DNA from: an uncultured Candidatus Saccharibacteria bacterium
GTDB taxonomy: Bacteria > Patescibacteriota > Minisyncoccia > Phycocordibacterales > UBA6899
Length of the DNA: 64,000 nucleotides
Assembly (NCBI GenBank): GCA_964515375.1
Contig: CAZERF010000001.1
Location: 45,777-109,776, forward strand
Direction of reading: 5' to 3'
Shown here: positions 9,590 through 53,000 of the stretch, one piece after another
Layout of the letters: every line of letters begins with the position of its first letter
Numbering within the stretch: position 1 is the stretch's first letter
The notes under the pieces: model-generated
Seen by the model: the letters and a program-made list of their open reading frames with translations, nothing else
Told to the model about the DNA's origin: nothing
The model's database searches: none
Position numbers and translations under genes: made by a program

Positions 9590-9611
9590 GCTCTAGGAAA
9601 TGGGTATCATA

Positions 9612-9647
9612 AAAAGGTTCTTGTGCAAACAAGAACCTTTTGTTTTG
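9612..9647 (+). terminator. Rho-independent terminator downstream of the glutaredoxin-like gene
   Basis: Hairpin AAGGTTCTTG-tgcaaa-CAAGAACCTT followed by TTGTTTTG. Confidence 0.6.
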
Positions 9648-9656
9648 TACTACATC

Positions 9657-9729
9657 GGTACGGCGGTGATGGTGGTTCCTTTGAGGAATCGAACCATGAT
9701 GAGATGTGAATGTTATTTTTGCTCCCGTA
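9657..9729 (+). repeat. Direct repeat copy 1 (73 bp), followed by a degenerate tRNA-like sequence up to ~9783
   Basis: It is identical to 9866-9938. The copy ends in GCTCCCGTA, the first 9 nt of the tRNA-Arg gene. The downstream 9730-9783 retains the GCTCC-GTCCTGA anticodon-arm-like and GGGAGCC acceptor-like segments but is otherwise diverged. Confidence 0.8.
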
Positions 9730-9865
9730 TGAAGTGGATAGTGGAGCTCCGTCCTGAGGTGAGGTGCGGCGTTGGGAGCCCATTCTGATGGGAGCCGCAC
9801 CGCAAGACCTTTTGAGATATTTTGTGAACAATGTGATGCAAAATATCCAAAAGGTGTACTGCGCC

Positions 9866-9938
9866 GGTACGGCGGTGATGGTGGTTCCTTTGAGGAATCG
9901 AACCATGATGAGATGTGAATGTTATTTTTGCTCCCGTA
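9866..9938 (+). repeat. Direct repeat copy 2 (73 bp), overlapping the 5' end of tRNA-Arg
   Basis: Exact copy of 9657-9729. Confidence 0.8.
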
Positions 9939-10001
9939 GTTCAATGGATAGAACAGCTCCGTCCTAAGGAGTTGATGGTGGTTCGATTCCTCCCGGGAGC
10001 A
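9930..10001 (+). tRNA. tRNA-Arg (anticodon CCT)
   Basis: Hand-folded. The acceptor stem is GCTCCCG/CGGGAGC. The D arm is GTTC-AATGGATA-GAAC. The anticodon stem is GCTCC/GGAGT with loop GTCCTAA. The T arm GGTGG-TTCGATT-CCTCC has one U-U mismatch. No CCA is encoded. Confidence 0.65.
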
Positions 10002-11515
10002 CAAAACAAGACTTCTGACGAAGTCAACGAGCGCGGCGAAGCCGCGCGAGAAAAAGAAAAAGGAGAAATACGCCGTCGCTCCGCGACGAAATGGCTGGGC
10101 GAGGACACGGAAAAGTGGGCGGCTTTGTCACGAACTGCATGGTTCGTTCCAATTTTTTGGACGAAGTCGGCAATTTCGGAGAAATTGTCAGACGAGGACA
10201 AAAAAGTGGCTTGTTTCGTATCTTTTACCCACTCCCGCAATGGTTCGATCCAAGTATTTCCCCGACGTTCACAATCTTTCTTTTTCTCGTTCAAAGTTGC
10301 GAGAGAGCGCATGGTAGCATCCTTCTTTTTCAGATAAATCTCTTTGGGTATGTCTCCATCCAAGTATGTTGAAACGAGTTTGTCCATGCGCTCCTCGTCC
10401 GCTTTGATTTTTTCGGAAAGATTGCGAACCTCGCTCCCTGAAACGGAAGTAGCTTCTTGCTCCCATGTCTCAACTTGCTCCAACATCCAATCGGTATAGC
10501 GATCAGGGAGCGAGATTGTTTGAAGCCGTACTTGCAACTGCTCTGCGAGGTTTCGCTCTTGCACGTACCCTTGCGAGCAAGTGCCGTGCTTTTTGGTACA
10601 GCGATAGTAGCGATAGATACCACCATTGCCTTTGGCGTGTTGCGCCGTGAACATGCCACCGCACTCCCCACAGCGAAACAAGCCAAGAAACGGAAAGTCA
10701 TGCCTGTTCCTTCGCTTCGGCGCACGCGCCTTGCTCGCAAGAACTTTTTGCACGGCTTCAAACAATGTCGGTGAAATAATTGGTTCAAATGTGCCATCAA
10801 ACCATTCACCATTGTGGCGAACAAAACCGAGATATGCTCGATTGCTCAAAAGGTGCCTGACGGCACATTTGGCAAGTGGCTTTCCTTTCGAACTGGTAAC
10901 GCCTAAATCCGCCAAAAACTGCGACAAACTAACAAGACCATGCGTGCCTTTGGCATATTCCTCAAAAGCGCAAGCAACAATCTTTGAATTAGTCGGATGA
11001 GGTTCGATGTTTCTCGTTTTCTGATTGTTCACATACCCAAACGGCGCTTTGGTGAGCCATTCGCCACGGCGCAGTTTTTGGCGGATGCCTCTTTTCACAT
11101 TCTGTACCAAATTGTCCGAGTAGTATTTAGATTGCCCAAAAGCCACTTGCAACATAAAGAGCCCTTGCGGAGTGGGTTCAAACCAAAAGGTCGGAAAGCG
11201 CAAAGACACAATACGCTCGGTATCCACCGCATAGATGACGCGGCCTCCATCAATACTATTTCTAGCCAGACGGTCGGGGTGCCATGCGAGTATCCCCGAA
11301 GCTTCTCCCGTTTCAATGCACGTCATCATCTCATTAAAAATAGGACGACCGGGTGTCTTTGCGCTTTTCGACTCTTGAAACTCCGACAGAATTTCAAGAT
11401 TTTCTTTACGTGCAAATTCATGTAGTTCAAACAACTGCGCTTCTATACTCATGACTTGTTTATCGTCATCTTCGGTGCTTTTTCGAGCGTAAAGAAAATA
11501 TTTTGGTTTGATCAT
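9941..11515 (-). CDS. Large serine recombinase (resolvase/invertase N-terminal domain + recombinase domain + zinc ribbon)
   Basis: The N-terminus YARKSTEDDDKQ carries the catalytic Ser in the resolvase motif. DRLARN and a recombinase domain follow. The zinc ribbon is CGECGG...YYRC. The C-terminal ~60 codons of the ORF are encoded by IR1-left and end inside the tRNA-Arg gene. The true stop may therefore differ. Confidence 0.85.
   Translation of the reverse strand: MIKPKYFLYARKSTEDDDKQVMSIEAQLFELHEFARKENLEILSEFQESKSAKTPGRPIFNEMMTCIETGEASGILAWHPDRLARNSIDGGRVIYAVDTERIVSLRFPTFWFEPTPQGLFMLQVAFGQSKYYSDNLVQNVKRGIRQKLRRGEWLTKAPFGYVNNQKTRNIEPHPTNSKIVACAFEEYAKGTHGLVSLSQFLADLGVTSSKGKPLAKCAVRHLLSNRAYLGFVRHNGEWFDGTFEPIISPTLFEAVQKVLASKARAPKRRNRHDFPFLGLFRCGECGGMFTAQHAKGNGGIYRYYRCTKKHGTCSQGYVQERNLAEQLQVRLQTISLPDRYTDWMLEQVETWEQEATSVSGSEVRNLSEKIKADEERMDKLVSTYLDGDIPKEIYLKKKDATMRSLATLNEKKKDCERRGNTWIEPLREWVKDTKQATFLSSSDNFSEIADFVQKIGTNHAVRDKAAHFSVSSPSHFVAERRRISPFSFSRAASPRSLTSSEVLFCAPGRNRTTINSLGRSCSIH
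9999..10129 (+). repeat. Inverted repeat IR1, left copy (131 bp); it starts inside the 3' end of tRNA-Arg
   Basis: Its reverse complement is identical to 11567-11697 (checked base by base at both ends). Confidence 0.85.
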
Positions 11516-11566
11516 AATTTTTTCCCATTAAAAAGATTGATAAAAATCATGCGATACGAAACAAGA

Positions 11567-11697
11567 GACAAAGCCGCCCACTTTTCCGTGTCCTCGCCCA
11601 GCCATTTCGTCGCGGAGCGACGGCGTATTTCTCCTTTTTCTTTTTCTCGCGCGGCTTCGCCGCGCTCGTTGACTTCGTCAGAAGTCTTGTTTTGTGC
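11567..11697 (+). repeat. Inverted repeat IR1, right copy
   Basis: Reverse complement of 9999-10129. Confidence 0.85.
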
Positions 11698-11935
11698 AGA
11701 AATACTGACCTTTGCTCGAACCCATTTCGAGAAAGGACAATGATCGTGCCGCGCGGAGCGCGTGGTGATGCGAACGCGAAGCGTACGCATTCGGAAATGT
11801 CTGCGCGCCTCGCTGCCTCGCCAGCTCGGCTCCCAAAACCAAAGAAATATCCTTACAATCATTTTTTCGGTGGAGGGGTGTGGGGAGGAGCCGACAGAAA
11901 AAGGAAAGGATATTTCTTTGGTTTGGGATCGCCGC
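11695..11935 (+). repeat. Inverted repeat IR2, left copy (241 bp), abutting IR1-right
   Basis: Its reverse complement matches 13643-13884 with a single mismatch. Confidence 0.85.
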
Positions 11936-12028
11936 AATGAGTTCTTAAAAATCATTTCCCCACCATTACCCTAGTATATTATACTATAATAGTCGTGTAT
12001 AATGTAATAGTTGGGTATAATTGTGGAT

Positions 12029-12232
12029 ATGAATGAGTCCGCAATGCTCGGCAACAATTTGAAAAGGATTCGCGAAGCGAAAAATATGTCTCAAGGTGAC
12101 ATCATGCGCTCTTTGGGATGTAGTCGTAGTTACATAAGTAATATAGAGAACGGAAAAACTAATCCAACACTTTCAACTATCGCTAAGTTGGCAAAAGCGG
12201 TTGGTGTTCCACTTAATAAGTTATTGCAATAA
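12029..12232 (+). CDS. XRE-family helix-turn-helix transcriptional regulator
   Basis: MNESAMLGNNLKRIREAKNMSQGDIMRSLGCSRSYISNIENGKTNP is a canonical HTH_3 motif. It lies in an AT-rich segment. The TTG at 12011 is an alternative start. Confidence 0.8.
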   Translation: MNESAMLGNNLKRIREAKNMSQGDIMRSLGCSRSYISNIENGKTNPTLSTIAKLAKAVGVPLNKLLQ

Positions 12233-12236
12233 GTTT

Positions 12237-13199
12237 ATGAAATCGAAAGCCATCATTATAATTTTTATACTTTTTGTTCTGTTATTTTTAGGTGGCAGAT
12301 ACATTTACTATGGTTCTGTAACGCGCGATTGTATTTATACTGAAAACAAGTTACCCGTACCTGGAGCACTCGAAGCCGGTACTGTAGTTGTGGCAAAGGA
12401 TGCCTACTTAGCTATCGGCATAGACAAAGAGCATGAATGCTTGGACTCGTTTGGAAAAATAGACAGGGAGATTGTAGGACCAGACACAATCAACAACCTT
12501 ACGATAGGAAGGCAATATTTTACTAACAGAGGACTATCTGTACAGACACTTAAAAAGGGAAATGAGTTCAAAGTTGTTGATATTATCTCCGTCACTAAAC
12601 ACGGTCTGTCAACGATAGATTCTGGGCCAGGGCCTATCTATTATCTTATTTTGCAAAGTAGCGACGGGTTACTTTACCAAATTGCAACAGTATCACTCGG
12701 ACTTAATAAACAAGACTTGTTTCTTGCTTTTGTTGACGGTACCCAGAATTACGATCCATCCGCTCCCCAGCTATTAAGTCCAGACAGTTTTAACGAGACT
12801 TATAGTTATGAAGGAGCAGATTCACTCACGTATACTGGAAAACTAACTCAATTAACAGACGATTATCTTCAAAGTACAGAACCACAGTGGAAAAAGTTAG
12901 CAGACCGACTTGAGCGTGGTGAAAAATTTCTCATCATGGTAGATATTGACTTACGAGATGATGCTTTCAGACCGATTATCCTCTCTGAAAACTCAGAAGC
13001 AAGATACAATCAAGTAGCTCAAATACAAGACGAGTTTCTTAAAAAGATACCAAATAATATTGTCCTGAACGGACTTGAAAAAAACCAATCTTGGCCATAT
13101 ATCTCTATGGAGGCAAATCTAGATTTATTGAATTACTTGGTTGATCATCAGGTAGAGTTAAAAATTAAGTCAATATCTGAACTACAAAAAGTGCAGTAA
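12237..13199 (+). CDS. Hypothetical membrane-anchored protein (AT-rich cargo gene)
   Basis: The ATG is 4 nt after the XRE stop. The N-terminal TM anchor is KAIIIIFILFVLLFLGG, followed by a ~290-aa soluble domain. No family was recognised. GC content is far below the flanks. Confidence 0.55.
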   Translation: MKSKAIIIIFILFVLLFLGGRYIYYGSVTRDCIYTENKLPVPGALEAGTVVVAKDAYLAIGIDKEHECLDSFGKIDREIVGPDTINNLTIGRQYFTNRGLSVQTLKKGNEFKVVDIISVTKHGLSTIDSGPGPIYYLILQSSDGLLYQIATVSLGLNKQDLFLAFVDGTQNYDPSAPQLLSPDSFNETYSYEGADSLTYTGKLTQLTDDYLQSTEPQWKKLADRLERGEKFLIMVDIDLRDDAFRPIILSENSEARYNQVAQIQDEFLKKIPNNIVLNGLEKNQSWPYISMEANLDLLNYLVDHQVELKIKSISELQKVQ

Positions 13200-13642
13200 A
13201 AACGTCCGTCTCGCTATCCCCGCGGCAAGCCGACGGGGCATTACGCGGGCGGAATCGGGCGTTTTTGCTAGTTAAGGAATCCCCTCCGGTGATACTTTGT
13301 TTAATGTCGCATTCATCCTCGAGGCAAGCCCACGAGGCATTCTGCGACGTTCTAGTAAAAGACATTCGAGTGTCACGAAAAAGATTGGTTTGTATAGCAG
13401 GTTTTTGAAATCGTAATACACTCAACCGAAGCCACTAAGCTCACACACGGAAGCACCGCAGCAGCTCGCGCGAGCGGAGCGAGCGAGCTGTGCGGAGGTG
13501 CTGGAGTGTAGTGAGCGAACGTTAGAATCACCACGCAGGTTCGCTACGGGAGAGCGCCTCGCACGCCGCGAGTACGGAGAAAAGCGAAGTGGAAGACTCT
13601 CAAATAAAATGGGAACTGAAACAAAGCTTTTTGGAGGACAAA

Positions 13643-13884
13643 GCGGCGATCCCAAAACAAAGAAATATCCTTTCCTTTTTCTGTCGGCTCCTCCCCACAC
13701 CCCTCCACCGAAAAAATGATTGTAAGGATATTTCTTTGGTTTTGGGAGCCGAGCTGGCGAGGCAGCGAGGCGCGCAGACATTTCCGAATGCGTACGCTTC
13801 GCGTTCGCATCACCACGCGCTCCGCGCGGCACGATCATTGTCCTTTCTCGAAATGGGTTCGAGCAAAGGTCAGTATTTCTGCAC
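13643..13884 (+). repeat. Inverted repeat IR2, right copy
   Basis: Reverse complement of 11695-11935. Confidence 0.85.
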
Positions 13885-13918
13885 TTTTTCTTTCTTTCCC
13901 TCATGCTATAATAAACAG

Positions 13919-14216
13919 CATGGCGATATCAGAAGAAAGCGCGCATGACAAGCTCGACGAGGTGCTTGAGCTCGTTCGTGAGAACAACAAAATCCTCCGC
14001 ACAATGCATCGCCGTATGTTGTGGAGTCAGGTCTTTACTTTTGTATACTGGATCATCATTCTCGGCGTTGCGGGTTGGGCGTATTACTATTTCCAGCCGT
14101 ATGTTGAGCGTTATGTGAACACGTATCAGGCGATCGTCGGCAATCTTGAGAATCTTGATAGTCAAGGGACGGATTTCCCCAGTGAGCTCAAGTCGCTTCT
14201 TGATAAAGTAAGGTAA
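13919..14216 (+). CDS. Small membrane protein, hypothetical
   Basis: The ATG is at 13919, just past IR2-right (MAISEESAHDKLDEVLELV...). There is one TM helix, VFTFVYWIIILGVAGWAYYYF. The longer track ORF from 13716 would read through the repeat. Confidence 0.5.
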
Positions 14217-14241
14217 ATAAGGTATCCTTGAGGACATCGCA

Positions 14242-14317
14242 GTTGCGATATGCCGAGGTAGCTCAGTTGGTAGAGCGCTCGCCTGAAGAGCGATAGGTCA
14301 CCAGTTCGACCCTGGTC
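14242..14317 (+). tRNA. tRNA-Phe (anticodon GAA)
   Basis: Hand-folded. The acceptor stem is GCCGAGG/CCTCGGC. The D arm is GCTC-AGTTGGTA-GAGC. The anticodon loop is CTGAAGA. The T arm is ACCAG-TTCGACC-CTGGT. CCA is encoded. Confidence 0.85.
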
Positions 14318-14320
14318 CTC

Positions 14321-14505
14321 GGCACCACAATAGGCTCAGTTGGTGAGCAAAGTCTGCTTCTGAAAGCAGACACCAGGTTTGCTTTTTGGACAAGGTGTCC
14401 GCCACCGCGGACGCCAGCCACCACTCGTCTTCTTCGCCTTGCTGCGAAGTCGATCACCAATAGAGCGCATGCCTTTCGAGCGACGGGTCACCAGTTCGAC
14501 CCTGG
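14321..14505 (+). repeat. Scrambled tRNA-Phe-derived sequence: D-arm copy + 110-nt insert with three hairpins + copy of the tRNA 3' two-thirds (14451-14505)
   Basis: TAGGCTCAGTTGGTGAGC matches the Phe D arm with one inserted G. 14451-14505 (TAGAGCGCATGCCTTTCGAGCGACGGGTCACCAGTTCGACCCTGGTCCTCGGCAC) matches the tRNA-Phe 3' portion except in the anticodon arm. No 5' acceptor strand is present. Confidence 0.7.
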
Positions 14506-14512
14506 TCCTCGG

Positions 14513-14541
14513 CACTGTCAAATCAAAACCGCCCATGAATG
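14513..14541. terminator. Bidirectional rho-independent terminator
   Basis: Perfect palindrome AAAACCGCCCAT-GA-ATGGGCGGTTTT, lying between the tRNA cluster and the convergent Hsp20 gene. Confidence 0.65.
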
Positions 14542-14572
14542 GGCGGTTTTGATTATAGGAAAGAAGGGTTTG

Positions 14573-15124
14573 TTACACTGATTTCACCTTCAATTCCTGA
14601 ATGCGTTTGGTGTCAAATTTTGAGAGTCGAATGATGAGCAGTCCGTATCTTTCGACGGCGTCAGCCTTGTCTGGATCGACTTCATGCGGAAGTTCGATCT
14701 CGCGACGGAACGGACCCCAATAGAGTTCTCGAATGGCATAATTTTCATCAGGGATTCCTTCCGGCTCATTGCGCCTACCCTCTATGGTGATCGTTTTTCG
14801 TGTGATCGAAATATGAAGATTCTCGGGCATGACCCCCGCGATCATACACTGAACGATGATCTCGTTGTCTACCTCATAGAGGTCAACTGCCATTCCGGGA
14901 ACTTCGCTCTCGTCTTCTTCCTCAGGATCCTCGTCCGACTCTTCTTTTGCCTCGTCTTCTTTGTGCTCATCTTGAGACAAAAGGAGCTCCTCATCGTGTT
15001 CGGTGAGTTCCTTTTCAGGCTGGGAAATTTTGCGTTCTTGGTATTCCTCCTCTTCAAGCTCGTCCGGTACAAAGGGGCGTGACCCTGTCAGATGTTCGAG
15101 AAATGATGGTTTGCGTCCTTTCAT
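14573..15124 (-). CDS. Hsp20/alpha-crystallin family small heat-shock protein with an acidic N-terminal extension
   Basis: There is an alpha-crystallin domain (VDLYEVDNEIIVQCMIAGVMPENLHISI...AIRELYWGPFRREIELP). The N-terminus is rich in E/D. Confidence 0.8.
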   Translation of the reverse strand: MKGRKPSFLEHLTGSRPFVPDELEEEEYQERKISQPEKELTEHDEELLLSQDEHKEDEAKEESDEDPEEEDESEVPGMAVDLYEVDNEIIVQCMIAGVMPENLHISITRKTITIEGRRNEPEGIPDENYAIRELYWGPFRREIELPHEVDPDKADAVERYGLLIIRLSKFDTKRIQELKVKSV

Positions 15125-15888: not shown

Positions 15889-18119
15889 GCGGTCACCAGA
15901 AGTGGCTCCTTATGCTCAGGGAGCGATTGCCAGATCTCTTCGGTCACGTAGGGGATGAAGGGGTGCTGTAGTTTAAGTAGAGTGATAAAGAGGTGTCGTA
16001 GTGTCCATTGCGCGGAGCGTTTCTCGGGAGAGTCGGGGCCGTTTAGGAGCGCTTTTTCTTGCTCAATGATCACGTCCGCGAATTCGTTCCATGTGTAGTG
16101 ATAGAGTCGCTCTCCCGCAAGGTGGAGTTTGTATTCCTCGATATGTTTGGTCACAAAACGAGTGAGCTCATTAAGATCATCGATCAATTTTTTGTGCGCG
16201 GGAAGAATCTCAGGTTTGGCGTCTTCGGGAAGGTCTTCTGTGGTACTGATGACAAATCGAGCAATGTTCCAGATCTTGTTGGTGTATTTTTTGTAACCGC
16301 GGATCTTTTCTTCGGAAAGATTGATGTCGGATCCGGGTCCGGTACCGATGAGGAGCGAAAGGCGAGTGGCGTCCGCGCCATATTTTACGATCATGTCGAG
16401 CGGGTCGATCGCGTTGCCTTTTGATTTCGACATCTTTTGACCCTTGCTGTCGTGGACAAGTCCGTGGAGGTAAACCTTTTCGAATGGGATCTCTCCGAGG
16501 TGGTACGTAGACATGAGGACCATACGTGCAACCCAAAAGAAGAGGATGTCGTACCCTGTTTCAAGGAGCTGCGTCGGGTGGTATGTCTGCAAGTCAGTTG
16601 CATCTTCGTCTGGCCATCCGAGTGTCGAGAACGTCCAGAGTCCCGACGAGAACCATGTATCAAGCGTGTCGGGGTCCTGCTCCCATCCGTCTCCTTCCGG
16701 CGCCTCTGTTTCGACAAGAACCTCTTCCTGCTCGCCGGTCTTTTTGTACCAGACGGGAATACGATGTCCGTACCAGATCTGTCTCGAGATGCACCAATCA
16801 CCTAGATTGTCGATCCACTGGAAGTAGGTCTTGTTGAATCGCTCAGGAAGGATCTCGACTTGTTCATTCTCGACCACTTTGCCCATTAGCTCTTTAAGGG
16901 TTACTTGGTCACCCGCTTCGAGTCCTTTGATGTTTGAGCGTTTGAGTGTGAAGGGTTTGTTGACCGCGATGAACCATTGGAGTTTGGGGAGGGGCTCGAT
17001 GACTGCGCCGGTGCGTTCCGCAGTTGAAACATTTTGTTTGACATCTTCCTCGCCCGTCAAGAGTCCTTCCTCTTTGAGCCAGGTTACGATCGCCTCGCGC
17101 GCTTCATTGACCTTCCTTCCGAGTATGCGTTCATCTCCGACCGTTATCTTTGCATACTCGTTGATCACCGGTTTCACCTCAAGATGGTGACGCTGCGCGA
17201 TATCCCAGTCGATGCGGCTGTGCGCGGGGGTGACCCCAAGCGCCCCGGTCCCGAATTCTTTGTCCACGGTGTGATCGGCAATCACCTTGATCGTGAGGGG
17301 GACACCACAAAAGGTCACCTTGTATTCCTTTCCAACATACGCCTTGTAGCGTTCATCGTCGGGATGCACTGCGACCGCAGTATCCCCGACCTTTGTTTCC
17401 GGTCGAGTCGTGGAGATGGGAATAGGGAAGTCCTTTGCGTAGGTGAAAGTATAAAGCTTCGCGCTTCGTTCTTCGTAGACGATCTCGTCATCTGAGATCG
17501 TTGTCTGTCCTTTGGGGTCCCAGTTGATGACACGGTATCCGCGATAGATGAGACCGTCATCGTACATGCGTTTGAAGGCAGTGCGGACAGCAAGGGAACG
17601 TTCATCGTCGAGTGTGAACGCCTCGCGAGACCAGTCGACCGATGCCCCCATTTTCTTGACCTGATGTACGATCGTGTCGTGACTCTCTTGAGCAAATTGC
17701 CGTACCCGAGCGAGAAACTCTTCTCGTCCAAGATCGTGTCGTGATAGACCTTTTTCCTTTTGAAGGATCTTTTCCACTTTTGATTGAGTGGCGATGGCCG
17801 CATGGTCGGTACCCGGGATCCACAATGTACGTTTTCCCGACATGCGGTGGTATCGCACGACGGTGTCTTCGATCGCAAGCATCGCGGCGTGGCCCATATG
17901 AAGGACTCCCGTTACATTTGGAGGGGGGAGTACGATCGCGAAGGTTTTTGCATCGGGTTTCGTGTGACCCTTTGCAACAGAGGTGTCGGGGTTAAAATAT
18001 CCCGAATCAAGCCAATCCCGATAGATCCTATCTTCGGTCTCTTCGGGTTTGTAGGGAGAAAGAAACTTGTTGTCCATGTTGCCCATCATACCACAGATTC
18101 TAAAAACGTGAGTGTTCAT
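15873..18119 (-). CDS. valS: Valyl-tRNA synthetase (short form lacking the C-terminal coiled-coil)
   Basis: PPPNVTGVLHMGHA is the HIGH-type motif. GTDHAAIATQ is present. KMSKSKGN is the KMSKS motif. Similarity to ValRS extends throughout. Confidence 0.95.
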   Translation of the reverse strand: MNTHVFRICGMMGNMDNKFLSPYKPEETEDRIYRDWLDSGYFNPDTSVAKGHTKPDAKTFAIVLPPPNVTGVLHMGHAAMLAIEDTVVRYHRMSGKRTLWIPGTDHAAIATQSKVEKILQKEKGLSRHDLGREEFLARVRQFAQESHDTIVHQVKKMGASVDWSREAFTLDDERSLAVRTAFKRMYDDGLIYRGYRVINWDPKGQTTISDDEIVYEERSAKLYTFTYAKDFPIPISTTRPETKVGDTAVAVHPDDERYKAYVGKEYKVTFCGVPLTIKVIADHTVDKEFGTGALGVTPAHSRIDWDIAQRHHLEVKPVINEYAKITVGDERILGRKVNEAREAIVTWLKEEGLLTGEEDVKQNVSTAERTGAVIEPLPKLQWFIAVNKPFTLKRSNIKGLEAGDQVTLKELMGKVVENEQVEILPERFNKTYFQWIDNLGDWCISRQIWYGHRIPVWYKKTGEQEEVLVETEAPEGDGWEQDPDTLDTWFSSGLWTFSTLGWPDEDATDLQTYHPTQLLETGYDILFFWVARMVLMSTYHLGEIPFEKVYLHGLVHDSKGQKMSKSKGNAIDPLDMIVKYGADATRLSLLIGTGPGSDINLSEEKIRGYKKYTNKIWNIARFVISTTEDLPEDAKPEILPAHKKLIDDLNELTRFVTKHIEEYKLHLAGERLYHYTWNEFADVIIEQEKALLNGPDSPEKRSAQWTLRHLFITLLKLQHPFIPYVTEEIWQSLPEHKEPLLVTAWPTA

Positions 18120-18133
18120 AACGTTTTCACGAT

Positions 18134-18190
18134 ATGTCCTTTATGTCTTATAAAGGACATATGTATAAAGGACATCATGATGTCCTTTAT
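18134..18190. promoter_or_regulatory. Cluster of four 11-mer half-sites (ATAAAGGACAT / ATGTCCTTTAT) in the divergent valS / surface-protein intergenic region
   Basis: The arrangement is ATGTCCTTTAT-gtct-TATAAAGGACAT-atg-TATAAAGGACAT-CATG-ATGTCCTTTAT. The last two half-sites form a perfect 26-bp palindrome. Confidence 0.5.
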
Positions 18191-18492
18191 ACGGCTGTGT
18201 AGAGCCATAAAAAGAAACACCACATATTGACATTTTTGTAAAATTCGCTTACACTTAGGTTTAATCAACTCTGGTTCTTAACAGCATTGCAACGACAACG
18301 CGAACAAGATCGAGTCTCGATCATTGTCCTCGCAGATTGCTAGGGTGTCTCCTGTTTTTATTTGATCCTTGTTTCTTTGTGATCTCTGTATTGCTTTGTT
18401 TTGGATGCAAGATCTCCGTGCATTTTTGCATGTCTTTTATTACCAAATAGTATCGTTATTTCTCGCTATCTTATAAATCATCATTCTCGCTT

Positions 18493-21400
18493 ATGAACTC
18501 CGTATACCCATCTTATAAACGTCCATTCTACCTCATGCTTCGCCCGGTCTTCGTGTGGATCATGACCTTTTCTTTGCTACTCCAAACGAGTGCTGTTCTT
18601 CCGCTTGTCGCGGATGCGAACGTACTTGTGAATGTGTCACATTCGGACGGCACAACATCGACCTACGATCTGAAGGAAACCGAGGACGACATCATTGTTT
18701 CGTACTCCATGGGGGAAACGGATGGATCGGGCGCTCCGACTCTCGATGCGCTCTCCGGCCTGCTTGGCCTTTTGGATTCTTCCCTTACGGAGGTGAAGGC
18801 GGAAACGTCCTGCACGGGGAACGGAACTGCGACGGCAAGTGCGAGCGTGACGGATACAGTCACGATCGAAGGCGAGACGGTTGTTGCGACAGCGAGCGCG
18901 CAATCGACGGTGACCTGTTCTGACGGCGAAACAACCCCCGTCAACACTCCTCCCTCCGTGACGCTTCTTGGCGGAACCCCGATGTCCGTGACGCTTGGTA
19001 CATCCTTTGTCGATCCAGGTGCGAACGCCACCGACGCGGAGGATTGTGTCGGACTCACACAGAGCGCGTGTAATACGGCGTTGTCCTTGACGGCGACGGG
19101 TGTCGTGAACACGAATACTCTTGGAACCTACACGATCACCTACACTGCACGCGATTCGAGTGGAGCATTGGCCGTTCCTGTCACTCGTACGGTTATTGTG
19201 ATCGCTCCGTCAACGACAGAGTGTCGTGCTCCGAGTGATATTATGCTTGCGATCGATCGTTCGGGAAGTATGAATGATGATGGGACAAATCCTGATCAAC
19301 CGATGACCTTTGCGAAGGATGCGGCAAAGAACTTTATTGATAGTCTCTCTGCAACAGATGATCGTGTTGGAGTGGTGTCTTTTAGCACTCTCGCGCGACT
19401 CGATGTGTCTTTGACGAATGATTTCCCTCAAGCAAAATCGGCGCTCACCGGACTCATCGCGGAGGGGTGGACAAATATTGCTGAAGCGCTTCTTTTCTCC
19501 TCGAACGACCTTACTGCGAACGGACGAACCAACGCTCGTCAGATCATTATTTTGCTCTCCGACGGAAGACCGGAACCTGACACGAACGCTGGCACCGTTG
19601 CCGCGATCCAGAACGAAGGGGTATGTCATCTACACGATCGGGCTCGGTTCTGGAATTTCTGCTCCGCTTATGCAGGAGATCGCCACGAGTCCCGCGCACT
19701 ACTTCTTCGCGGCATCCGGTACCGACCTCGACGCCATCTATCAATCCATCTTGAGTGTTGAATGTGCACTTCCGAAAGGTTCCGTTTCGGGCCACAAGTA
19801 TCATGATGTTGACGCAAACGGTTCCTTTGGAGACGGCGACACTGTCGTATCGGGATGGGGGATCACCCTTACTCCGAACTCGAGCACTCTTGGCTCTCCT
19901 CGTACGGTGACCACCGACTCTTCCGGCGCGTATACATTCACTGACGTTCAAGCCGGAGACTATACATTGTGTGAGGCGTCGCGAAGCGGATGGACGCAGG
20001 TGGCACCGACCGCGAATAACGGTTGTTACCTTGTCTCTGTTGTCGACAACGTGGATCTGACCGGAAAGAATTTTTACAACAAAGAGCAGGTGACTCCGCC
20101 CGTCAACACTCCTCCCTCCATCACGCTTCTTGGTGCGAACCCGCTCTCGCTGACTGTTGGTGCATCATTCACCGATCCGGGTGCGAACGCTACCGACGCG
20201 GAGGATTGTGTCGGACTCACACAGAGCGCGTGCAATACGGCGTTGTCCTTGACGGCGACGGGTGTGGTTAATACCGGTTCAATCGGCACTTATACTGTTA
20301 CCTATACCGCTCGTGACTCACAGGGTCTTCAGGCGATTCCGGTGACTCGCACGGTAAATGTGATCGCGCTTCCTCCTCCCGACAACACTCCTCCGGTGAT
20401 CACCGTACTTGGGAACAACCCGCTTTTGGTTCGCATCGGTACTATCTTCACCGACCCGGGTGCGACCGCTGCTGATGCTGAAGATGGCAACATTACCGAC
20501 GATATTGTGAAGACCGGCACCGTGAACACGGCGCAGGTGGGGAACTATACGATCCGCTACAACGTCACTGACTCCGACGGGGCAGCGGCAACGGAGAAGA
20601 CCCGCACGGTCACCGTGTTCTCCGCATGTTCCGACGGTCTCGACAACGATGGCGACGAAACGATCGACTTGAATGATGAAGGATGCACTGATCCGAACGA
20701 CGACAGCGAGAACGAGAAGCCGGTCATTGAACTCATTGGCGAGACTCCCATGTCCGTGACCCTTGGTGCAACCTTTACCGATCCGGGCGCCAACGCGACC
20801 GATACGGAAGATTGTATCGGGCTCACACAGAGTGCGTGCAACACCGCACTTCAATTGACAGCGACGGGTGTTGTGAACACGAATACTCTTGGAACCTACA
20901 CGATCACCTACACGGCACGCGATTCGGAAGGTCTTGAGGCGACTCCGGTCACGCGTACTGTGAACGTGGTCTCCACACCTCCGCCCGCCAATACACGCCC
21001 CGTTATTACGCTCCTTGGCGCGGACCCGCTTTTGGTTCGCATCGGTACAACTTTTGCTGATCCGGGTGCGAACGCCACCGATGCAGAGGATTGTGTCGGA
21101 CTCACACAGAGCGCGTGCAACACCGCACTTCAATTGACAGCGACGGGCACCGTGAACATCGCGCAAGTGGGGAACTATACGATCACCTACACGGCGAAGG
21201 ATTCTCGGGGACTCGAAGCGACTCCGGTCACGCGTACGGTCACCGTGTTCTCCGCATGTTCCGACGGCGTCGACAATGACGGCGATGAAACGATCGACTT
21301 GAATGATGAAGGATGCACTGATCCGAACGATGACAGTGAGAACGAGAAGCCGGTCATCACGTTGCTTGGAAATGTCGCCATGCAACTCATCTTGGGCACG

Positions 21401-23086
21401 ACCTTTACTGATCCGGGTGCGAACGCCACCGACGCGGAGGATTGTGTCGGACTCACACAAGCGGAATGCAACGAGATCCTTGACCTTACCGCAACAGGAA
21501 CGGTCAACACCACGCAGCTTGGCACTTACACTATTACGTACACCGCACGCGATTCGGAAGGCCTTCAGGCTGACCCTAAGACGCGCACCGTGAGTGTGAT
21601 TCAGCAGAGTATTCCGGGATGCACGAGCAACTGTGGTGGAGGTGAGACAAATACTCGCCCGGTGATCACCATGCTCGGCAACAACCCGATCTCTGTTCAA
21701 CAAAACACGACCTTTACCGATCCGGGTGCGACGGCGTGGGACTCGGAAGACGGAGATATCACCAGCAAGATCATTGTCTCGGGTACGGTCGACACTACTC
21801 GCCTCGGTTCCTACAACATCGCGTACAACGTGACGGATTCGAAGGGACTTCCCGCACAAGAGCGCACACGCACGGTCAACGTTGTTCCGTGTACAAGCAA
21901 CTGTGGTGGAGGTGGGGGCGGTGGTAGTGTGACCCTCTCGATTTACAACGAGCGCCTCGCGGTGACCGGCACGACAACTGTTGTTGTGACCTGGAATACC
22001 AACATCCCCGCGGATAGTCGCGTGGTCTACGGACTCAATTCTGTTACTTCGCCCGCGTCTGCCCCGTACTACGGATACCCTCTGACCACGGCCACATCGA
22101 CGACCTATACCACCACACACTCGATGACGATCACCGGAATTCCGTCCATGATCGCGACGTACTATCGACCTGTCTCGACGAACGGCGCACTTGTTGCGGT
22201 GGGGCGTGAGCTTACGCGCGCACCCGAGGTGCCGACCGTGATCGGCGGTTCGTGTGAATACTTGAAGGAATATCTCCGCATCGGGTACAACAACAACCCG
22301 ACCGAGGTCTTGAAGCTCCAGCTTTTCCTCAAGAACTTTGAAGGATTTGCCAACATCTCGACCAGCGGATTCTTTGACGAAGTGACTGATCGCAGTGTCC
22401 GCATCTTTCAGGATCGCTACGCGGCCGACATCTTGACCCCGTGGAACCTTCCCGGCAACACTGGCTATGTCTACTATACGACCAAGAAGAAGATCAACGA
22501 GATCTATTGTCAGCGCGAGTTCCCGCTCACCCCGGCACAGTTGGCCGAGATCGCGGAGTTCCGTGAATTGATCCGTCGCATCGGCGCTCCGGTCTCGGGC
22601 GGTGAAACGGTTACGGTCCCGACCTCAACCGGCGGCACGGCGGTGGTCACTGTTCCCGTCGTTGGTCGCAATGACACACAGTCTTCGACGCAAGGTGCGG
22701 TCGCGGGGGCGGCAACCGTCTCCAATGTTCCCGGTGCGGCAACTTCCACTGCGACAGGGACACAAGCATCGAGTGGTCGCAACGGCATCGCGCTTGCCGA
22801 CCTCCTTGCTACTTCTCCTAGTGTCGGACGGGAACTTCAAAATGGTGAAGCCGCATACGACACCGGGGTGGCCACTTCCGTCTCGGGTGACCCGAGCGCG
22901 CTCTTGAAGCAGAACGCCATTCAGGCGGCGATCGGAGCAATCTCCGACGCGACCCACATCTCGGAAAAGGTTTTGCTCGCAGGACTCCTCTTCCTGATCA
23001 TCCTCATCATCGTTGCGGTCGTGATCGTGTGGAGAATGATCGCACGTCGCAAGCAAAATGAGATGAAACTCCCGAAGCAACTCTAA
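18493..23086 (+). CDS. Giant cell-surface protein (signal peptide, repeated Ig-like DUF5011-type domains, vWA domain, Cys/Asp-rich Ca-binding-like linkers, peptidoglycan-binding domain, C-terminal TM anchor), interrupted by a +1 frameshift near 19615-19625
   Basis: Track ORFs 18493-19761 and 19418-23086 are contiguous parts of one reading frame. The vWA domain starts in the first ORF (MIDAS DRSGSM, LSDG) and continues in the second (GYVIYTIGLG...YFFAASGTDLDAIYQSI). Removing one G from the GGGG run at ~19617-19620 restores AIQNEGYVIYTIGLG. Confidence 0.7.
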
Positions 23087-46600: not shown

Positions 46601-46835
46601 ACAAATAAAAACTGCCTCACGAGGCAGAATGACTTCCACCCCTAGGGGTCGGTCACGGGTTTTCGCATTGCTACTGCATGCAAACGCCTTGTGTGATCGG
46701 TTTAGCCCTAATAGGAACGAATAAAGAAGTTGTAGATGCAATCTAACAGAACGAAGGCGTTTCGGCAATGTGCGCCACATTTACCGTACGGGCGGCTCCC
46801 CGTGTGTCTAAAAAAGTATTGTAAAATATAGTTTT

Positions 46836-46867
46836 CATAAAGGACATTCTGTGAATTGTCCTTTATG
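46836..46867. promoter_or_regulatory. Second copy of the ATAAAGGACAT operator-like inverted repeat (9-nt spacer)
   Basis: CATAAAGGACAT-tctgtgaat-TGTCCTTTATG lies in the divergent intergenic region between the S1 protein gene and the MBL-fold gene. Confidence 0.5.
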
Positions 46868-46977
46868 AAAACGGTGCACGCACGATCTGCGGCATGGGGA
46901 ACGTTATCTTGTTATTGTGCAATCGTTGGGCGATCATTCAAGTTTTCATTTCGACATTGAGCTGGTATACTGCGCCC

Positions 46978-47619
46978 ATGATCATCACATATCATGGAGG
47001 ACAATTCATCAAGATCGCTCAAGGAGATACGGTCATCGCAGCCAATCCGTTCGGTAAGGGTTCTCAATATAAACCGATCCGTTTTGGCGCCCGTCTCGGA
47101 CTCATTTCGGTGAATCATCCTGATTTCAATGGTGCGGAAAATCTTGCTCATGGGGAGAAGACCCCTTTCGTCATTTCGGGTCCCGGTGAGTATGAGGTCG
47201 GAGGTATCTCGGTTTCAGGTACCCTTGCGCCGAAAGGTTTTGGAAAAGACGAACTCCTTAATACGATCTATGCGGTTGAAATGGAGGGCGTGCGTTTGTG
47301 TATGCTTGGTGCGCTTTCTTCTATCGACCTTACGAGTGAGCAGATCGAGGGAATCGGTGAAGTTGATATTCTTTTTGTTCCCGTTTCGGGGGAGGGTATC
47401 CTTTCACCCGCCGATGCGGGCAAGATCGCGGTCTCGCTCGATGCCAAGATCATCATTCCGGTTGGGTGGTCCGATCCTTCCGACAAACAACTCCTACTCT
47501 TTCTAAAGGAGGCCGGGGATGAGGGTATCGCCTCGGTGGAGAAGCTGACACTCAAGAAGAAAGATCTTGAAGGGAAGGAGGGTCAAGTTGTTTTACTGGA
47601 ACCTCTTTCGCACGCATAA
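46978..47619 (+). CDS. MBL-fold metal-dependent hydrolase (UPF0173-like)
   Basis: MIITYHGGQFIKIAQGDTVIAANPF... matches the N-terminal pattern of UlaG/UPF0173 beta-lactamase-fold proteins. The start was chosen at ATG 46978. Confidence 0.6.
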   Translation: MIITYHGGQFIKIAQGDTVIAANPFGKGSQYKPIRFGARLGLISVNHPDFNGAENLAHGEKTPFVISGPGEYEVGGISVSGTLAPKGFGKDELLNTIYAVEMEGVRLCMLGALSSIDLTSEQIEGIGEVDILFVPVSGEGILSPADAGKIAVSLDAKIIIPVGWSDPSDKQLLLFLKEAGDEGIASVEKLTLKKKDLEGKEGQVVLLEPLSHA

Positions 47620-52592: not shown

Positions 52593-53000
52593 ATGCGTAC
52601 TGTAAATAGGAAATTGATCATATTCTTTCTCTCGTTGGGGTTTGTTTTTGCCCCCTTGGTCTTTGCTGAGGATTCAGGATTAATCCCATGCGGAAATGAT
52701 GTTAAGAATGGTAAGGTAACGGATCCTTGTGGTTACGACGATCTTGTCACACTAGCAAAGAACGTCATTGATTTCCTCATTTTCAAGATCGCTGCACCGC
52801 TCGGGGCTGTTATGTTTGCGTACGCCGGGTTCTTGTATCTCACAAATGGAGGAAACGAATCAAAAATCAAGGAAGCGCACACAATATTCCTCTATGTCTT
52901 TTGGGGGCTTGTTGTCGCACTGGCCGCATGGCTCATTGTGAATTTTGTGTTGACGTTCTTCCTTGGAGAAAGTTCTACCTTTAACTTCCTTGGTGTATGA
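52593..53000 (+). CDS. Small secreted two-helix membrane protein, VirB2/TrbC-pilin-like paralog 1
   Basis: A signal peptide is followed by ~35 aa, TM helix 1 (IAAPLGAVMFAYAGFLYL), the loop TNGGNESKIKEA, and TM helix 2 (IFLYVFWGLVVALAAWLIVNFV). This core motif is shared with the next seven genes. Confidence 0.7.
   Translation: MRTVNRKLIIFFLSLGFVFAPLVFAEDSGLIPCGNDVKNGKVTDPCGYDDLVTLAKNVIDFLIFKIAAPLGAVMFAYAGFLYLTNGGNESKIKEAHTIFLYVFWGLVVALAAWLIVNFVLTFFLGESSTFNFLGV

What the first reader, a model, noticed from the sequence alone, without database searches (positions are those of the whole stretch)
18134..18190. Conserved 11-mer palindromic operator motif shared by two divergent promoter regions
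ATAAAGGACAT and its complement occur four times between valS and the giant surface-protein gene, including a perfect 26-bp palindrome at 18165-18190. The same motif occurs as an inverted pair with a 9-nt spacer at 46836-46867, between the S1-protein gene and the MBL-fold hydrolase gene. Recurrence of an 11-mer in inverted orientation at two independent divergent intergenic regions is unlikely by chance and implies a dimeric DNA-binding regulator with a small regulon.
Basis: seen in the sequence. Interest (0 to 1): 0.6.

Follow-up and report, generated by a model that had tools for sequence, protein, structure and literature searches.

The report
Patescibacterial regulator binding-site clusters
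The repeated 11-mer is real. It is one local example of a short DNA motif, TAAAGGACA, that clusters in promoter regions across the tiny-celled Patescibacteria (CPR) and probably marks the binding sites of an uncharacterised winged-helix regulator.

Summary
ATAAAGGACA occurs six times exactly in 64 kb, only in two divergent intergenic regions (valS | surface-protein gene; rpsA | MBL-fold gene). Chance predicts fewer than one.

It is not a classical fixed-spacer palindromic operator. The conserved unit is an asymmetric half-site, (y)ATAAA[G/a]GACA(t). In close relatives the cores are kept and the spacers mutate. The "perfect palindrome" is therefore incidental.

The same half-site forms clusters of 2-9 copies, in any orientation and spacing, in many Parcubacteria and Saccharibacteria genomes. 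Recurrent contexts are upstream of tRNA-Pro, valS, large secreted proteins, and the CCA-enzyme/rpsO region.

A candidate binding protein emerged. It is a Patescibacteria-wide, unannotated ~250-aa family with three parts:
- an Avd/S23p-like four-helix bundle;
- a disordered linker;
- an invariant winged helix.

Its own gene is the densest carrier of the motif: 13 copies in 4.3 kb against 3 in 78 kb. One copy lies inside the linker coding sequence, read as K-G-Q/H, in 81 of 120 members.

Proposed mechanism (inferred): an oligomer with flexibly tethered winged helices binds half-site arrays at promoters and autoregulates. Canonical DnaA boxes often sit next to the motif in other lineages.

Binding is untested, and the regulator has not been shown in this genome.

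The parts
18134..18144 (-). Half-site 1 (ATAAAGGACAT on the minus strand). It pairs with half-site 2 as the inverted pair 18132-18162.
   Evidence: The core is identical in relative L123.
18150..18160 (+). Half-site 2 (ATAAAGGACAT)
18165..18175 (+). Half-site 3, the left arm of the perfect 30-bp palindrome 18163-18192
   Evidence: The core is conserved in L123, L124 and L125 while the central spacer changes.
18180..18190 (-). Half-site 4, the right arm of the 30-bp palindrome. It lies 38 nt from the -35 of the surface-gene promoter.
   Evidence: The 38-nt distance to TTGACA is the same in the window, L123, L124 and L125.
18430..18440 (-). Possible degenerate half-site ATAAAAGACAT in the 5' leader of the surface-protein gene
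   Evidence: 1 mismatch. ATAAAAGACA is the commonest variant found beside exact copies elsewhere. In L123 it is further mutated, so membership is uncertain.
46837..46846 (+). Half-site 5 (ATAAAGGACA). On the minus strand its TGTCCT occupies the -35 position of a putative rpsA promoter.
   Evidence: The core and spacer are conserved in L203, but the outer arm is not. The promoter placement is my reading of the sequence.
46857..46866 (-). Half-site 6 (TGTCCTTTAT on the plus strand)
18227..18255 (+). Sigma-70-type promoter TTGACA-17-TACACT of the surface-protein gene. The cluster centres lie at about -85 and -115 from the predicted start.
   Evidence: The -35 is conserved in L123-L125 and in more distant relatives.
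18193..18206 (.). Short conserved element GGCTgtgtagAGCC between the cluster and the -35
   Evidence: Read from the sequences printed (window, L123, L124, L125). Function unknown.
18075..18093 (-). valS extended -10 (TGGTATGAT, 18093-18085) followed 7 nt later by the ATG (18077-18075), suggesting a leaderless mRNA. The cluster lies about 45-105 nt upstream.
   Evidence: The same TGnTAnnAT + ATG layout appears at valS in L028, L031 and L014. The transcription start is inferred.
46943..46980 (+). MBL-fold gene promoter TTTTCA-17-TATACT with an upstream TG, followed 6 nt later by the ATG at 46978
46818..46823 (-). Putative rpsA -10 (TACAAT on the minus strand), 17 nt downstream of half-site 5
   Evidence: Read (conserved in L203). 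The promoter scanner did not call it.

Best explanation
The six copies are binding sites for a sequence-specific DNA-binding protein. They belong to a cis-regulatory motif, (y)ATAAA[G/a]GACA(t), that is widespread in Patescibacteria (Parcubacteria/Paceibacteria and Saccharibacteria).

The functional unit is a single asymmetric half-site. Half-sites are used in clusters of 2-9 with free spacing and orientation. They sit upstream of, or overlapping, extended -10 or sigma-70 promoters.

The most likely binding protein is an uncharacterised Patescibacteria-wide family of about 250 aa. It has an N-terminal Avd/S23p-like four-helix bundle, a 40-60-residue disordered linker and an invariant C-terminal winged helix (...CSEKTIQRELL...KKEGERRWSRYSLK). 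Its own gene and promoter carry the densest motif clusters, which suggests autoregulation.

Proposed mechanism: the helical bundle oligomerises (the structural relatives are pentamers) and presents several flexibly tethered winged helices. Each docks on one half-site, with the recognition helix on GACA and the wing on the A/T-rich TAAA. This would explain why arrays work in any geometry.

In this window the array would act at three places:
- it overlaps the -35 of the putative rpsA promoter;
- it sits at about -85/-115 of the surface-protein promoter;
- it sits at about -45 to -105 of the valS(-prsW-hsp20) promoter.

Shown: the motif statistics, its conservation, its genomic contexts, its concentration in the candidate gene, and the predicted fold.

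Inferred: binding itself, the identity of the binder, its oligomeric state, the direction of regulation, and the presence of the regulator in this genome.
For: 1. Non-random and intergenic.

2. Selection acts on cores, not on the palindrome.
- Window against L123 (95% ValS identity): all four cores are identical while the spacers differ (tcatga->ttatgc, atacata->atgcata, ataagacat->ataagtaat).
- L124 and L125 keep the first pair at exactly 38 nt from the TTGACA -35.
- Site C in L203 keeps the cores and spacer but loses the outer stem without compensation.

3. Spread across CPR.
- 33 of the 120 genomes returned for ATAAAGGACA-N0-20-TGTCCTTTAT are CPR.
- 19 of 33 CPR loci against 7 of 87 others have >=3 copies within 150 nt (Fisher p = 3e-8).
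- Consensus from 129 copies. Tolerated variants ATAAA[A/C]GACAT.

4. Free geometry.

5. Recurrent contexts.
- Between yraN and tRNA-Pro(UGG) in at least 7 loci.
- Upstream of valS in L014, L028, L031 and L060, and in 9 of 79 valS loci not selected for the motif.
- Upstream of large secreted proteins.

6. Candidate regulator.
- Three of the 33 motif-selected CPR loci (L022, L110, L119) fall inside its gene.
- In four loci fetched by protein homology only, 13 exact 8-mers lie in 4.3 kb of gene +/-250 nt, against 3 in 78 kb (p = 1e-14).
- Promoters read TGTCC(T/G)(T/A)TATATAAT, with further copies before the ATG.
- K-G-[Q/H] (= AAAGGACA in frame) occurs in the otherwise variable linker of 81 of 120 members, against 4.2 expected. 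It is preceded mostly by S/Y/D/N/H, whose codons can end in T. This pattern fits a DNA-level constraint.
- The recognition helix is invariant across the family.
- The family has at least 1904 (single query) to 2689 (profile) members. Every source name shown is patescibacterial.

7. Fold.
- AlphaFold mean pLDDT is 80, with the linker below 50.
- The only sequence match in the PDB is weak: BlaI, aligned over its recognition helix KTIQ.
Against: - No binding data exist. The link between protein and motif rests on the motif's concentration in the gene, which could equally mean the gene is simply the most heavily regulated target of another factor.
- The regulator was not found in the 64-kb window, nor in about 3 kb beyond its right edge. 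Its presence in this genome is therefore assumed.
- The association is patchy. Only 9 of 79 unselected CPR valS loci have exact copies upstream. The rpsA-MBL spacer of relatives L205 and L207 lacks the motif.
- Four-helix bundles are a common fold, sequence identity to Avd/S23p is only 10-14%, and the oligomeric state cannot be computed here.
- Some copies in the candidate gene coincide with conserved protein motifs (KKTEK, SEKTIQ give AAAAGACA). Part of the density may therefore be driven by the protein sequence.
- Exact DnaA boxes lie next to many copies in other lineages, which hints at a second player that this model does not explain.
Confidence: 0.58

Rival explanations
1. The motif is a protein-binding regulatory element, but the binder is some other factor. 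Candidates are a partner or competitor of DnaA, or an unidentified monomeric HTH protein. On this view the winged-helix gene is only its most heavily regulated target.
For: - Exact DnaA boxes occur 21 times in about 190 kb of motif-selected CPR loci, where about 1.5 are expected. Most lie within 1-30 nt of a motif copy and are often sandwiched, as in AAAGGACA-n-TTATCCACA-n-TGTCCTTT.
- A DnaA box follows the candidate gene in four loci fetched by protein homology (L238-L241). In a fifth (L245) it sits between two motif variants in the gene's 5' leader.
- Clusters of asymmetric 9-mers with free geometry are how DnaA boxes behave.
- The AAGGACA core fits my recollection of the SpoIIID consensus WWRRACAR-Y (memory only, not tested).
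Against: - The motif matches the DnaA box at only 5 of 9 positions. From my knowledge of the stringent consensus TTATNCACA, it fails at positions that DnaA requires.
- No DnaA box lies near either cluster in the window.
- In motif-unselected CPR DNA, DnaA boxes occur at the chance rate and are not near the motif.
- The conservation of an in-frame motif copy in the variable linker of the winged-helix gene across classes is most simply explained by autoregulation.
Confidence: 0.22
2. The inverted pairs act as RNA or DNA hairpins (terminators, RNA-processing sites or cruciforms) rather than as protein recognition sequences.
For: - All three pairs fold into very stable hairpins on either strand: -31 to -33 kcal/mol for the double hairpin and -22 kcal/mol for site C, with z-scores of -6 to -9.
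- In 7 CPR loci the pair starts within 17 nt of the yraN stop codon, some 25-200 nt ahead of tRNA-Pro. This layout resembles a terminator or a processing site.
- Most non-CPR hits to the pattern look like ordinary terminator hairpins with A/T-run flanks.
Against: - In the window both clusters lie between divergently transcribed genes, upstream of the promoters, so they are probably not transcribed.
- No U-tract follows them, and the terminator scanner called none there.
- Outer and inner stem positions mutate without compensation, while the 9-10-nt core sequence is invariant.
- Clusters made only of direct repeats cannot pair (L197, L164, L209).
- Loop lengths range from 1 to 19 nt.
- The same sequence, not merely the same structure, is conserved across classes with 30-54% G+C.
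- No Rfam family matches.
Confidence: 0.08
3. The motif is itself a core promoter element, recognised by an alternative sigma factor or acting as an unusual -35/-10. The inverted pairs would then be back-to-back divergent promoters.
For: - Pairs B and C point outward toward the two divergent genes.
- In 29% of copies the 3' end runs into a TANNNT hexamer (TGTCCTT-TATAAT).
- In L089 and in the candidate regulator's own promoters, a copy is fused to TATAAT.
Against: - No second conserved element lies at any fixed distance within +/-60 nt of 127 copies.
- The distance from the nearest copy to the recognisable extended -10 upstream of tRNA-Pro varies from 3 to 30 nt (read).
- Pair A in the window is face-to-face.
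- Good independent promoters exist for the flanking genes.
Confidence: 0.06
4. The motif is a selfish or neutral repeat (a REP/MITE-like element or a DNA-uptake sequence), or a chance recurrence.
For: - Patescibacteria are naturally competent (abstract of PMC10187176, listed).
- From my own knowledge, uptake sequences often occur as inverted pairs.
Against: - There are only 6 copies in 64 kb, all in two promoter regions.
- Four unselected 17-21-kb loci from relatives hold 0-2 copies each.
- The sites are orthologous and position-locked to a promoter in relatives with 69-95% ValS identity.
- The motif is shared by classes as distant as Saccharibacteria and Paceibacteria, unlike lineage-specific uptake sequences or MITEs.
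- Chance is excluded.
Confidence: 0.03

Closest known systems
DnaA-box clusters (DnaA acting as a transcription factor and at oriC)
   Same: An asymmetric 9-mer read one copy at a time. It is used in clusters with variable spacing and orientation, in intergenic regions. The two motifs are physically interleaved in many CPR loci.
   Different: The sequences differ: TAAAGGACA against TTATCCACA matches at 5 of 9 positions. The window's clusters have no DnaA box, and the window shows no origin-like reversal of GC skew. The candidate binder is a winged-helix protein, not an AAA+ initiator.
BlaI/MecI/CopY winged-helix repressors (TACA-N-TGTA operators)
   Same: The only sequence-level PDB match of the candidate regulator is BlaI, aligned over the recognition helix (SPKTIQ against SEKTIQ). 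From my own knowledge of those operators, both half-sites end in xACA. A Pfam Penicillinase_R hit falls below threshold.
   Different: From my own knowledge, BlaI/MecI are obligate dimers on a fixed dyad, with a C-terminal dimerisation/sensor domain cleaved by BlaR1. Here the winged helix is C-terminal, the other domain is an Avd-like bundle, and site spacing is free. All scores are below family thresholds, so it is not a member.
Avd / 'S23 ribosomal protein' (23S rRNA intervening-sequence protein) four-helix bundles
   Different: There is no detectable sequence similarity (10-14% identity, no Pfam hit). I know of no Avd/S23p protein fused to a winged helix. Oligomerisation of this domain is untested.
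SpoIIID of Bacillus (a monomeric HTH; consensus WWRRACAR-Y recalled from memory)
   Same: AAGGACA and AAAGACA fit WWRRACA. SpoIIID sites are single, occur in either orientation at variable promoter positions, and several can serve one promoter.
   Different: The family is restricted to spore-formers and has a different fold. The comparison rests on a recalled consensus only.
WhiA (core site GAYACRCY, upstream of the ribosomal-protein operon in Mollicutes; PMC11701221)
   Same: A conserved regulator in reduced genomes that binds as a monomer to an asymmetric site at translation-gene promoters. It shares the GACA tetranucleotide.
   Different: The WhiA core GAYACRCY does not match TAAAGGACAT beyond GACA. 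No WhiA gene or domain was seen here. This was considered only as a lead.

Membership tests
   Window: 6 nt between cores at B, 10 nt at C, and the opposite orientation with a 5-nt gap at A. Across loci the start-to-start distance ranges from 8 to more than 40 nt in all four orientation classes. Some clusters are direct repeats only.
   The central spacer and outer arm positions change between the window and L123, L124, L125 and L203. Only the 9-10-nt cores are kept.
Intrinsic terminator / structured RNA hairpin | A stem followed by a U-tract, located at the 3' end of a transcription unit | tested here: not met
   The terminator scan found none at either cluster. Both clusters lie between divergent gene starts.
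Intrinsic terminator / structured RNA hairpin | Compensatory changes that keep base pairing while the sequence drifts | tested here: not met
   In L203 the outer 6 bp of the 16-bp stem are lost without compensation. The inner pairs of palindrome B are lost in L123. The core sequence is invariant. No Rfam match.
DnaA box | Match to TTATNCACA (stringent consensus, from established knowledge) | tested here: not met
   TAAAGGACA matches at 5 of 9 positions and mismatches at T2, T4 and C6. True DnaA boxes co-occur as separate, adjacent elements.
REP / MITE / DNA-uptake sequence | High copy number spread through the genome, without positional orthology | tested here: not met
   6 clustered copies in 64 kb. 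0-2 copies per 17-21-kb unselected locus from relatives. Position is locked to a promoter across 69-95% ValS-identity relatives.
Winged-helix (wHTH) DNA-binding transcription factors (candidate binder) | A three-helix bundle plus a beta-hairpin wing | tested here: met
Winged-helix (wHTH) DNA-binding transcription factors (candidate binder) | Sequence-specific binding to the proposed site | not testable with these tools
   Needs EMSA, DAP-seq or ChIP-seq.
Avd / S23p (PF05635-type) four-helix bundle | Fold similarity | tested here: met
Avd / S23p (PF05635-type) four-helix bundle | Sequence-profile membership and pentameric assembly | tested here: inconclusive
   No Pfam or NCBIfam hit to the N-domain at E<=1. 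The oligomeric state could not be computed.
Autoregulated transcription factor | The factor's own promoter or gene carries its sites | tested here: met
   79-fold enrichment of the motif at the candidate gene in loci chosen by protein homology. Copies are fused to the -10 and lie before the ATG. This holds only if the protein is indeed the binder.

The most novel reading that the evidence does not exclude
Patescibacteria possess a previously undescribed, phylum-wide master regulator of new architecture: an Avd-like oligomeric (possibly pentameric) hub carrying several winged helices on long disordered tethers. It would read arrays of TAAAGGACA half-sites in any geometry and keep operator copies inside its own coding sequence. 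Working next to DnaA boxes, it would couple replication or cell-cycle state to the expression of cell-surface proteins and parts of the translation apparatus (tRNA-Pro, valS, rpsA, rpsO, the CCA-adding enzyme, tuf).
Probability: 0.3. Interest if true: 0.85.

Novelty: new variant of a known kind. Interest (0 to 1): 0.7.

Why it matters
Almost nothing is known about gene regulation in Patescibacteria/CPR. This is a huge, mostly uncultured radiation of bacteria with very small genomes and few recognisable transcription factors.

A conserved cis-element with a plausible binding protein gives a concrete and testable entry point:
- it predicts a regulon (surface proteins, selected translation genes, the regulator itself);
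- it predicts an unusual multivalent binding mode;
- it predicts an unexpected physical association with DnaA boxes.

Genetically tractable Saccharibacteria now exist (PMC10633639), so these predictions can be tested directly.

For annotation, the motif also flags promoters. It explains an otherwise puzzling conserved K-G-Q/H tripeptide in a disordered linker as a DNA-level constraint.

Tried and rejected
- **Known RNA families.** Rfam at gathering score over the whole window, and at E<=1 over both intergenic regions, gave nothing relevant.
- **Literature search for the motif string.** It returned only primers and unrelated hits. Searches on CPR promoters, regulators and oriC found no description of this motif.
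- **WhiA.** Its core GAYACRCY does not fit.
- **A regulator inside the window.** The only HTH protein found among the 20 ORFs scanned against Pfam is a 73-aa XRE-type protein within a recombinase-bearing mobile element. I rejected it as the binder of a phylum-wide motif.
- **A promoter-element model.** No fixed-distance partner element was found.
- **De novo k-mer enrichment upstream of 79 valS genes.** Only promoter hexamers and AGGACAT stood out, so the valS association is limited to some lineages.
- **Viral contigs.** 27 hits, mostly plain hairpins. A few loci (some from high-GC contigs) carry three copies; these were not pursued.
- **Extending beyond the window to find the regulator.** Only about 3 kb was gained, with no regulator.
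- **A contig of the same length as L125's contig.** It proved to be a different contig.
- **Homology between the window's surface protein and the PG_binding_1 proteins next to the regulator gene.** None at E<=1e-4.
- **Coding hits inside the CCA-adding enzyme (L012, L019, L078), rpoB (L062) and valS (+549 to +573).** I set these aside as driven, or possibly driven, by the protein sequence.
Full report
**1. Observation**

ATAAAGGACAT or its complement is exact at 18134, 18150, 18165, 18180 and 46837. A copy differing only at the last base lies at 46856. With up to one mismatch the window has 8 matches against 0.71 expected, and none of 100 dinucleotide-preserving shuffles reached 8.

The repeat finder shows three perfect inverted pairs:
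- A: 18132-18144/18150-18162, 13-nt arms, 5-nt gap, half-sites facing each other.
- B: 18163-18192, a perfect 30-bp palindrome with half-sites back to back.
- C: 46831-46846/46857-46872, 16-nt arms, 10-nt gap.

- valS (minus strand) most likely starts at 18077 (MDNKFLSPYKPEE). An extended -10, TGGTATGAT, lies 7 nt upstream.
- The divergent gene encodes a VWA plus six-fold Ig-like surface protein. It has a TTGACA-17-TACACT promoter at 18227-18255.
- rpsA (S1) starts at 46600.
- The MBL-fold gene starts at 46978, 6 nt after TGGTATACT.

MBL-fold homologues with a source name are from Candidatus Lloydbacteria. The organism is therefore a Paceibacteria-class patescibacterium.

**2. What is conserved**

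I fetched orthologous regions without reference to the motif.

*The valS-surface gene spacer.* In L123 (95% ValS identity) all four cores are identical to the window, while the sequence between them has changed (tcatga->ttatgc, atacata->atgcata, ataagacat->ataagtaat). L124 (73%) and L125 (69%) keep AAAGGACA-N6-7-TGTCCTTT plus further copies or variants. In all four genomes the first copy lies exactly 38 nt from the TTGACA -35 of the surface-gene promoter, whereas the distance to the valS promoter varies.

*The rpsA-MBL spacer.* L203 (97% MBL identity) keeps both cores and the 10-nt spacer. The outer six pairs of the window's 16-bp stem are gone, with no compensation. L209 has three direct copies instead. 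L205 and L207 have none.

The selected unit is therefore a 9-10-nt core, not the palindrome or a hairpin. The hairpins would be very stable if transcribed, but the comparative pattern argues against a structural role.

**3. The motif beyond this genome**

Of these, 31 are named as Patescibacteria, and two unnamed ones have patescibacterial synteny. By my own estimate Patescibacteria make up only a few per cent of the bases in such a collection.

Most other hits look like ordinary A/T-flanked terminator hairpins, or a sequence conserved within Psychrobacter. The CPR hits differ in having extra copies beside the pair. At least 3 exact 8-mers lie within 150 nt in 19 of 33 CPR loci, against 7 of 87 others (p = 3e-8).

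From 129 copies the consensus is y-A-T-A-A-A-G-G-A-C-A-t. Degenerate copies beside exact ones vary mainly at the first G (ATAAA[A/C]GACAT). Neighbouring copies occur in all four orientation combinations, at start-to-start distances from 8 to more than 40 nt with no preferred phase. No other element sits at a fixed distance.

In about 630 kb of CPR DNA that, apart from the window itself, was not selected for the motif, the exact 9-mer is about ten times denser outside long ORFs than inside them. It gives 20 intergenic-like hits, against a mean of 1.0 for 200 composition-matched 9-mers.

**4. Recurrent contexts**

- Between yraN (UPF0102) and tRNA-Pro(UGG), in a gene order (CCA-adding enzyme, tRNA-Arg, tRNA-Gly, yraN, tRNA-Pro) shared by Saccharibacteria and Paceibacteria. 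The copies lie 25-200 nt upstream of the tRNA, next to TGnTAnnAT promoters, at variable distance.
- Upstream of valS in L014, L028, L031 and L060, and in 9 of 79 valS loci fetched by protein homology, usually with two or more copies. The association is therefore limited to some lineages.
- Upstream of very large secreted proteins: L042, L053, L060, L108 (2309 aa) and L118 (1613 aa).
- Around the CCA-adding enzyme and rpsO. L070 has nine copies in 190 nt.
- Upstream of tuf in L043.

**5. A candidate binding protein**

Two loci with unusually many copies (L110, ten in 800 bp; L022) turned out to encode homologous proteins of about 250 aa ending in a winged helix. A third motif-selected locus, L119, falls in the same gene.

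The family has at least 1904 members by single-sequence search and 2689 by profile search. No Pfam domain is on record for nearly all members listed (two carry HTH_DeoR). Every source name shown is patescibacterial. No curated Pfam or NCBIfam model reaches threshold.

An alignment of 30 members shows three parts:
- a conserved N-terminal helical domain;
- a variable low-complexity linker;
- an essentially invariant C-terminus, L-T-IKDF..IKDCSEKTIQRELL.LV.KG.IKKEGERRWSRYSLK.

I then fetched four loci by protein identity only. They share the gene order recA <- x <- ftsK | regulator -> DnaA box -> large surface protein. They hold 13 exact motif 8-mers in the 4.3 kb covering the gene +/-250 nt, against 3 in the other 78 kb (79-fold, binomial p = 1e-14).

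The gene's promoters read TGTCC(T/G)(T/A)TATATAAT, that is, a motif variant fused to the -10. Further copies lie between the -10 and the ATG.

The disordered linker contains K-G-Q or K-G-H in 81 of 120 members, against 4.2 expected after shuffling. The preceding residue is mostly S, Y, D, N or H. K-G-[Q/H] is AAAGGACA read in frame, Q/H is what a free third base gives, and the preceding residues have codons that can end in T. This is the signature of a constraint on DNA, T-AAAGGACA, and not on protein. In the loci examined the codons are exactly AAAGGACA.

I read this as an operator kept inside the regulator's own gene. The invariant recognition helix fits a motif that is the same in distant classes.

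**6. Fold and mechanism**

The AlphaFold model (mean pLDDT 80) has three regions:
- a confident four-helix bundle, residues 25-137;
- a linker with pLDDT below 50, residues 154-179;
- a confident winged helix, residues 181-250.

Inference: the bundle oligomerises and presents several winged helices on flexible tethers of 40-60 residues. Each reads one half-site. This would account for arrays that work at any spacing and orientation, and for the rarity of isolated single copies.

In the window the arrays are placed as follows:
- about -85 and -115 from the predicted start of the surface-gene transcript;
- about 45-105 nt upstream of the leaderless valS promoter (valS is followed by prsW and hsp20);
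- over the -35 position of a putative rpsA promoter (TACAAT at 46823-46818, my own reading).

The sign of regulation cannot be deduced. The overlap with the -10/-35 at the regulator's own promoter and at rpsA suggests repression there.

**7. Unexplained: DnaA boxes**

In the motif-selected CPR loci, exact TTATCCACA occurs 21 times where about 1.5 are expected. It usually lies within 1-30 nt of a motif copy and is often sandwiched between two copies (L021, L033, L089). A DnaA box follows the regulator gene in four loci fetched by protein homology (L238-L241). In a fifth (L245) it sits between two motif variants in the 5' leader.

In unselected CPR DNA, DnaA boxes occur at the chance rate and are not near the motif. 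The window's clusters have none. Site C's conserved spacer (TGTGAATTG) matches TGTGNATAA at 7 of 9 positions, counting the N.

This may mean co-regulation with DnaA. It is also the main reason I keep a rival in which another factor binds the motif.

**8. Caveats**

- No binding evidence exists.
- The regulator was not found in the window or in the about 3 kb beyond its right edge.
- ORF masks were crude.
- Some motif copies in coding regions follow from conserved peptides. In the CCA-adding enzyme, YKGQ and IKDK both encode the motif in two different frames.

**9. Verdict**

I found no description of the motif in the searchable literature, and no curated protein-family model covers the candidate regulator. 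I classify this as a new variant of a known kind: transcription-factor site arrays, with an unusual candidate architecture.

Noticed in passing
window 9600-14600: A mobile or invertible region. A large serine recombinase (9941-11515, minus strand) is flanked by perfect 131-nt inverted repeats (9999-10129/11567-11697). The next segment, with an XRE HTH (12011-12232) and a 332-aa ORF, is flanked by 257-nt inverted repeats (11694-11950/13628-13884, 97%). Direct repeats of tRNA 3' parts lie at 14271-14325/14461-14515 and 9646-9729/9855-9938. G+C falls to 0.43. It looks like an element integrated at tRNA genes, possibly with invertible segments.
   Followed up: partly
window 46601-46830 (minus strand): A G+C-rich hairpin plus U-run (46627-46612) sits immediately before the rpsA start codon. 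It is conserved with compensatory changes in L203, L205, L207 and L209. This suggests a structured S1 leader or attenuator. No Rfam match.
   Followed up: partly
window 18075-18093 and 46963-46980; also L014, L028, L031: Housekeeping genes appear to be leaderless. An extended -10 (TGnTAnnAT) is followed 6-9 nt later by the ATG, with no Shine-Dalgarno sequence.
   Followed up: partly
window 18493-23086: The surface-protein gene is split into two overlapping reading frames (18493-19761 and 19418-23086). Both carry Bact_surface_Ig-like domains. This could be a frameshift, a sequencing error or programmed slippage.
   Followed up: no
window 18193-18206; same position in L123, L124, L125: A short conserved element, GGCTC-N5-6-AGCC, lies between the motif cluster and the -35 of the surface-gene promoter. 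It may be a second regulatory site.
   Followed up: no
L021 4811-4840, L033 2289-2330, L089 4034-4062/5817-5838/6568-6587, L245 about 4950-4985, and others: Canonical DnaA boxes (TTATCCACA) are interleaved with motif copies. There are 21 exact boxes in about 190 kb of motif-selected CPR loci, against about 1.5 expected.
   Followed up: partly
L070 5890-6060; L026, L097, L012, L019, L078 (CCA-adding enzyme genes): The conserved peptide DPYKGQxDIKDKxIR encodes ATAAAGGACA in two different reading frames. L070 has an in-frame insertion of about 45 aa made of six motif copies. This suggests DNA-level selection inside this gene as well.
   Followed up: partly
L207 8810-10000, L209 8897-10000: The rpsA-MBL intergenic spacer grows from 378 nt in the window to more than 1 kb in other Lloydbacteria. 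The extra sequence is G+C-rich and hairpin-rich, and may hold a non-coding RNA.
   Followed up: no
L023, L030, L032, L036, L041, L050, L057, L059, L066, L072, L095, L112, L120: Thirteen Psychrobacter loci share a near-identical element, ATAAAGGACAtagtgcgtacgaccaTGTCCTTTAT. It is unrelated to the CPR clusters and is probably a genus-specific conserved hairpin.
   Followed up: no
window 52593-55529; L203, L205, L207, L209: An array of five to eight small T4SS_pilin/TrbC-like genes lies downstream of gyrA, a methyltransferase and a solute-binding protein. It is conserved across Lloydbacteria.
   Followed up: no
L217, L223, L234 (G+C 0.61-0.65) and L227 (viral contigs): High-G+C viral contigs carry three motif copies in a CPR-like arrangement (AAAGGACA-N4-AAAGGACA-N12-TGTCCTTT). 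Host unknown.
   Followed up: no
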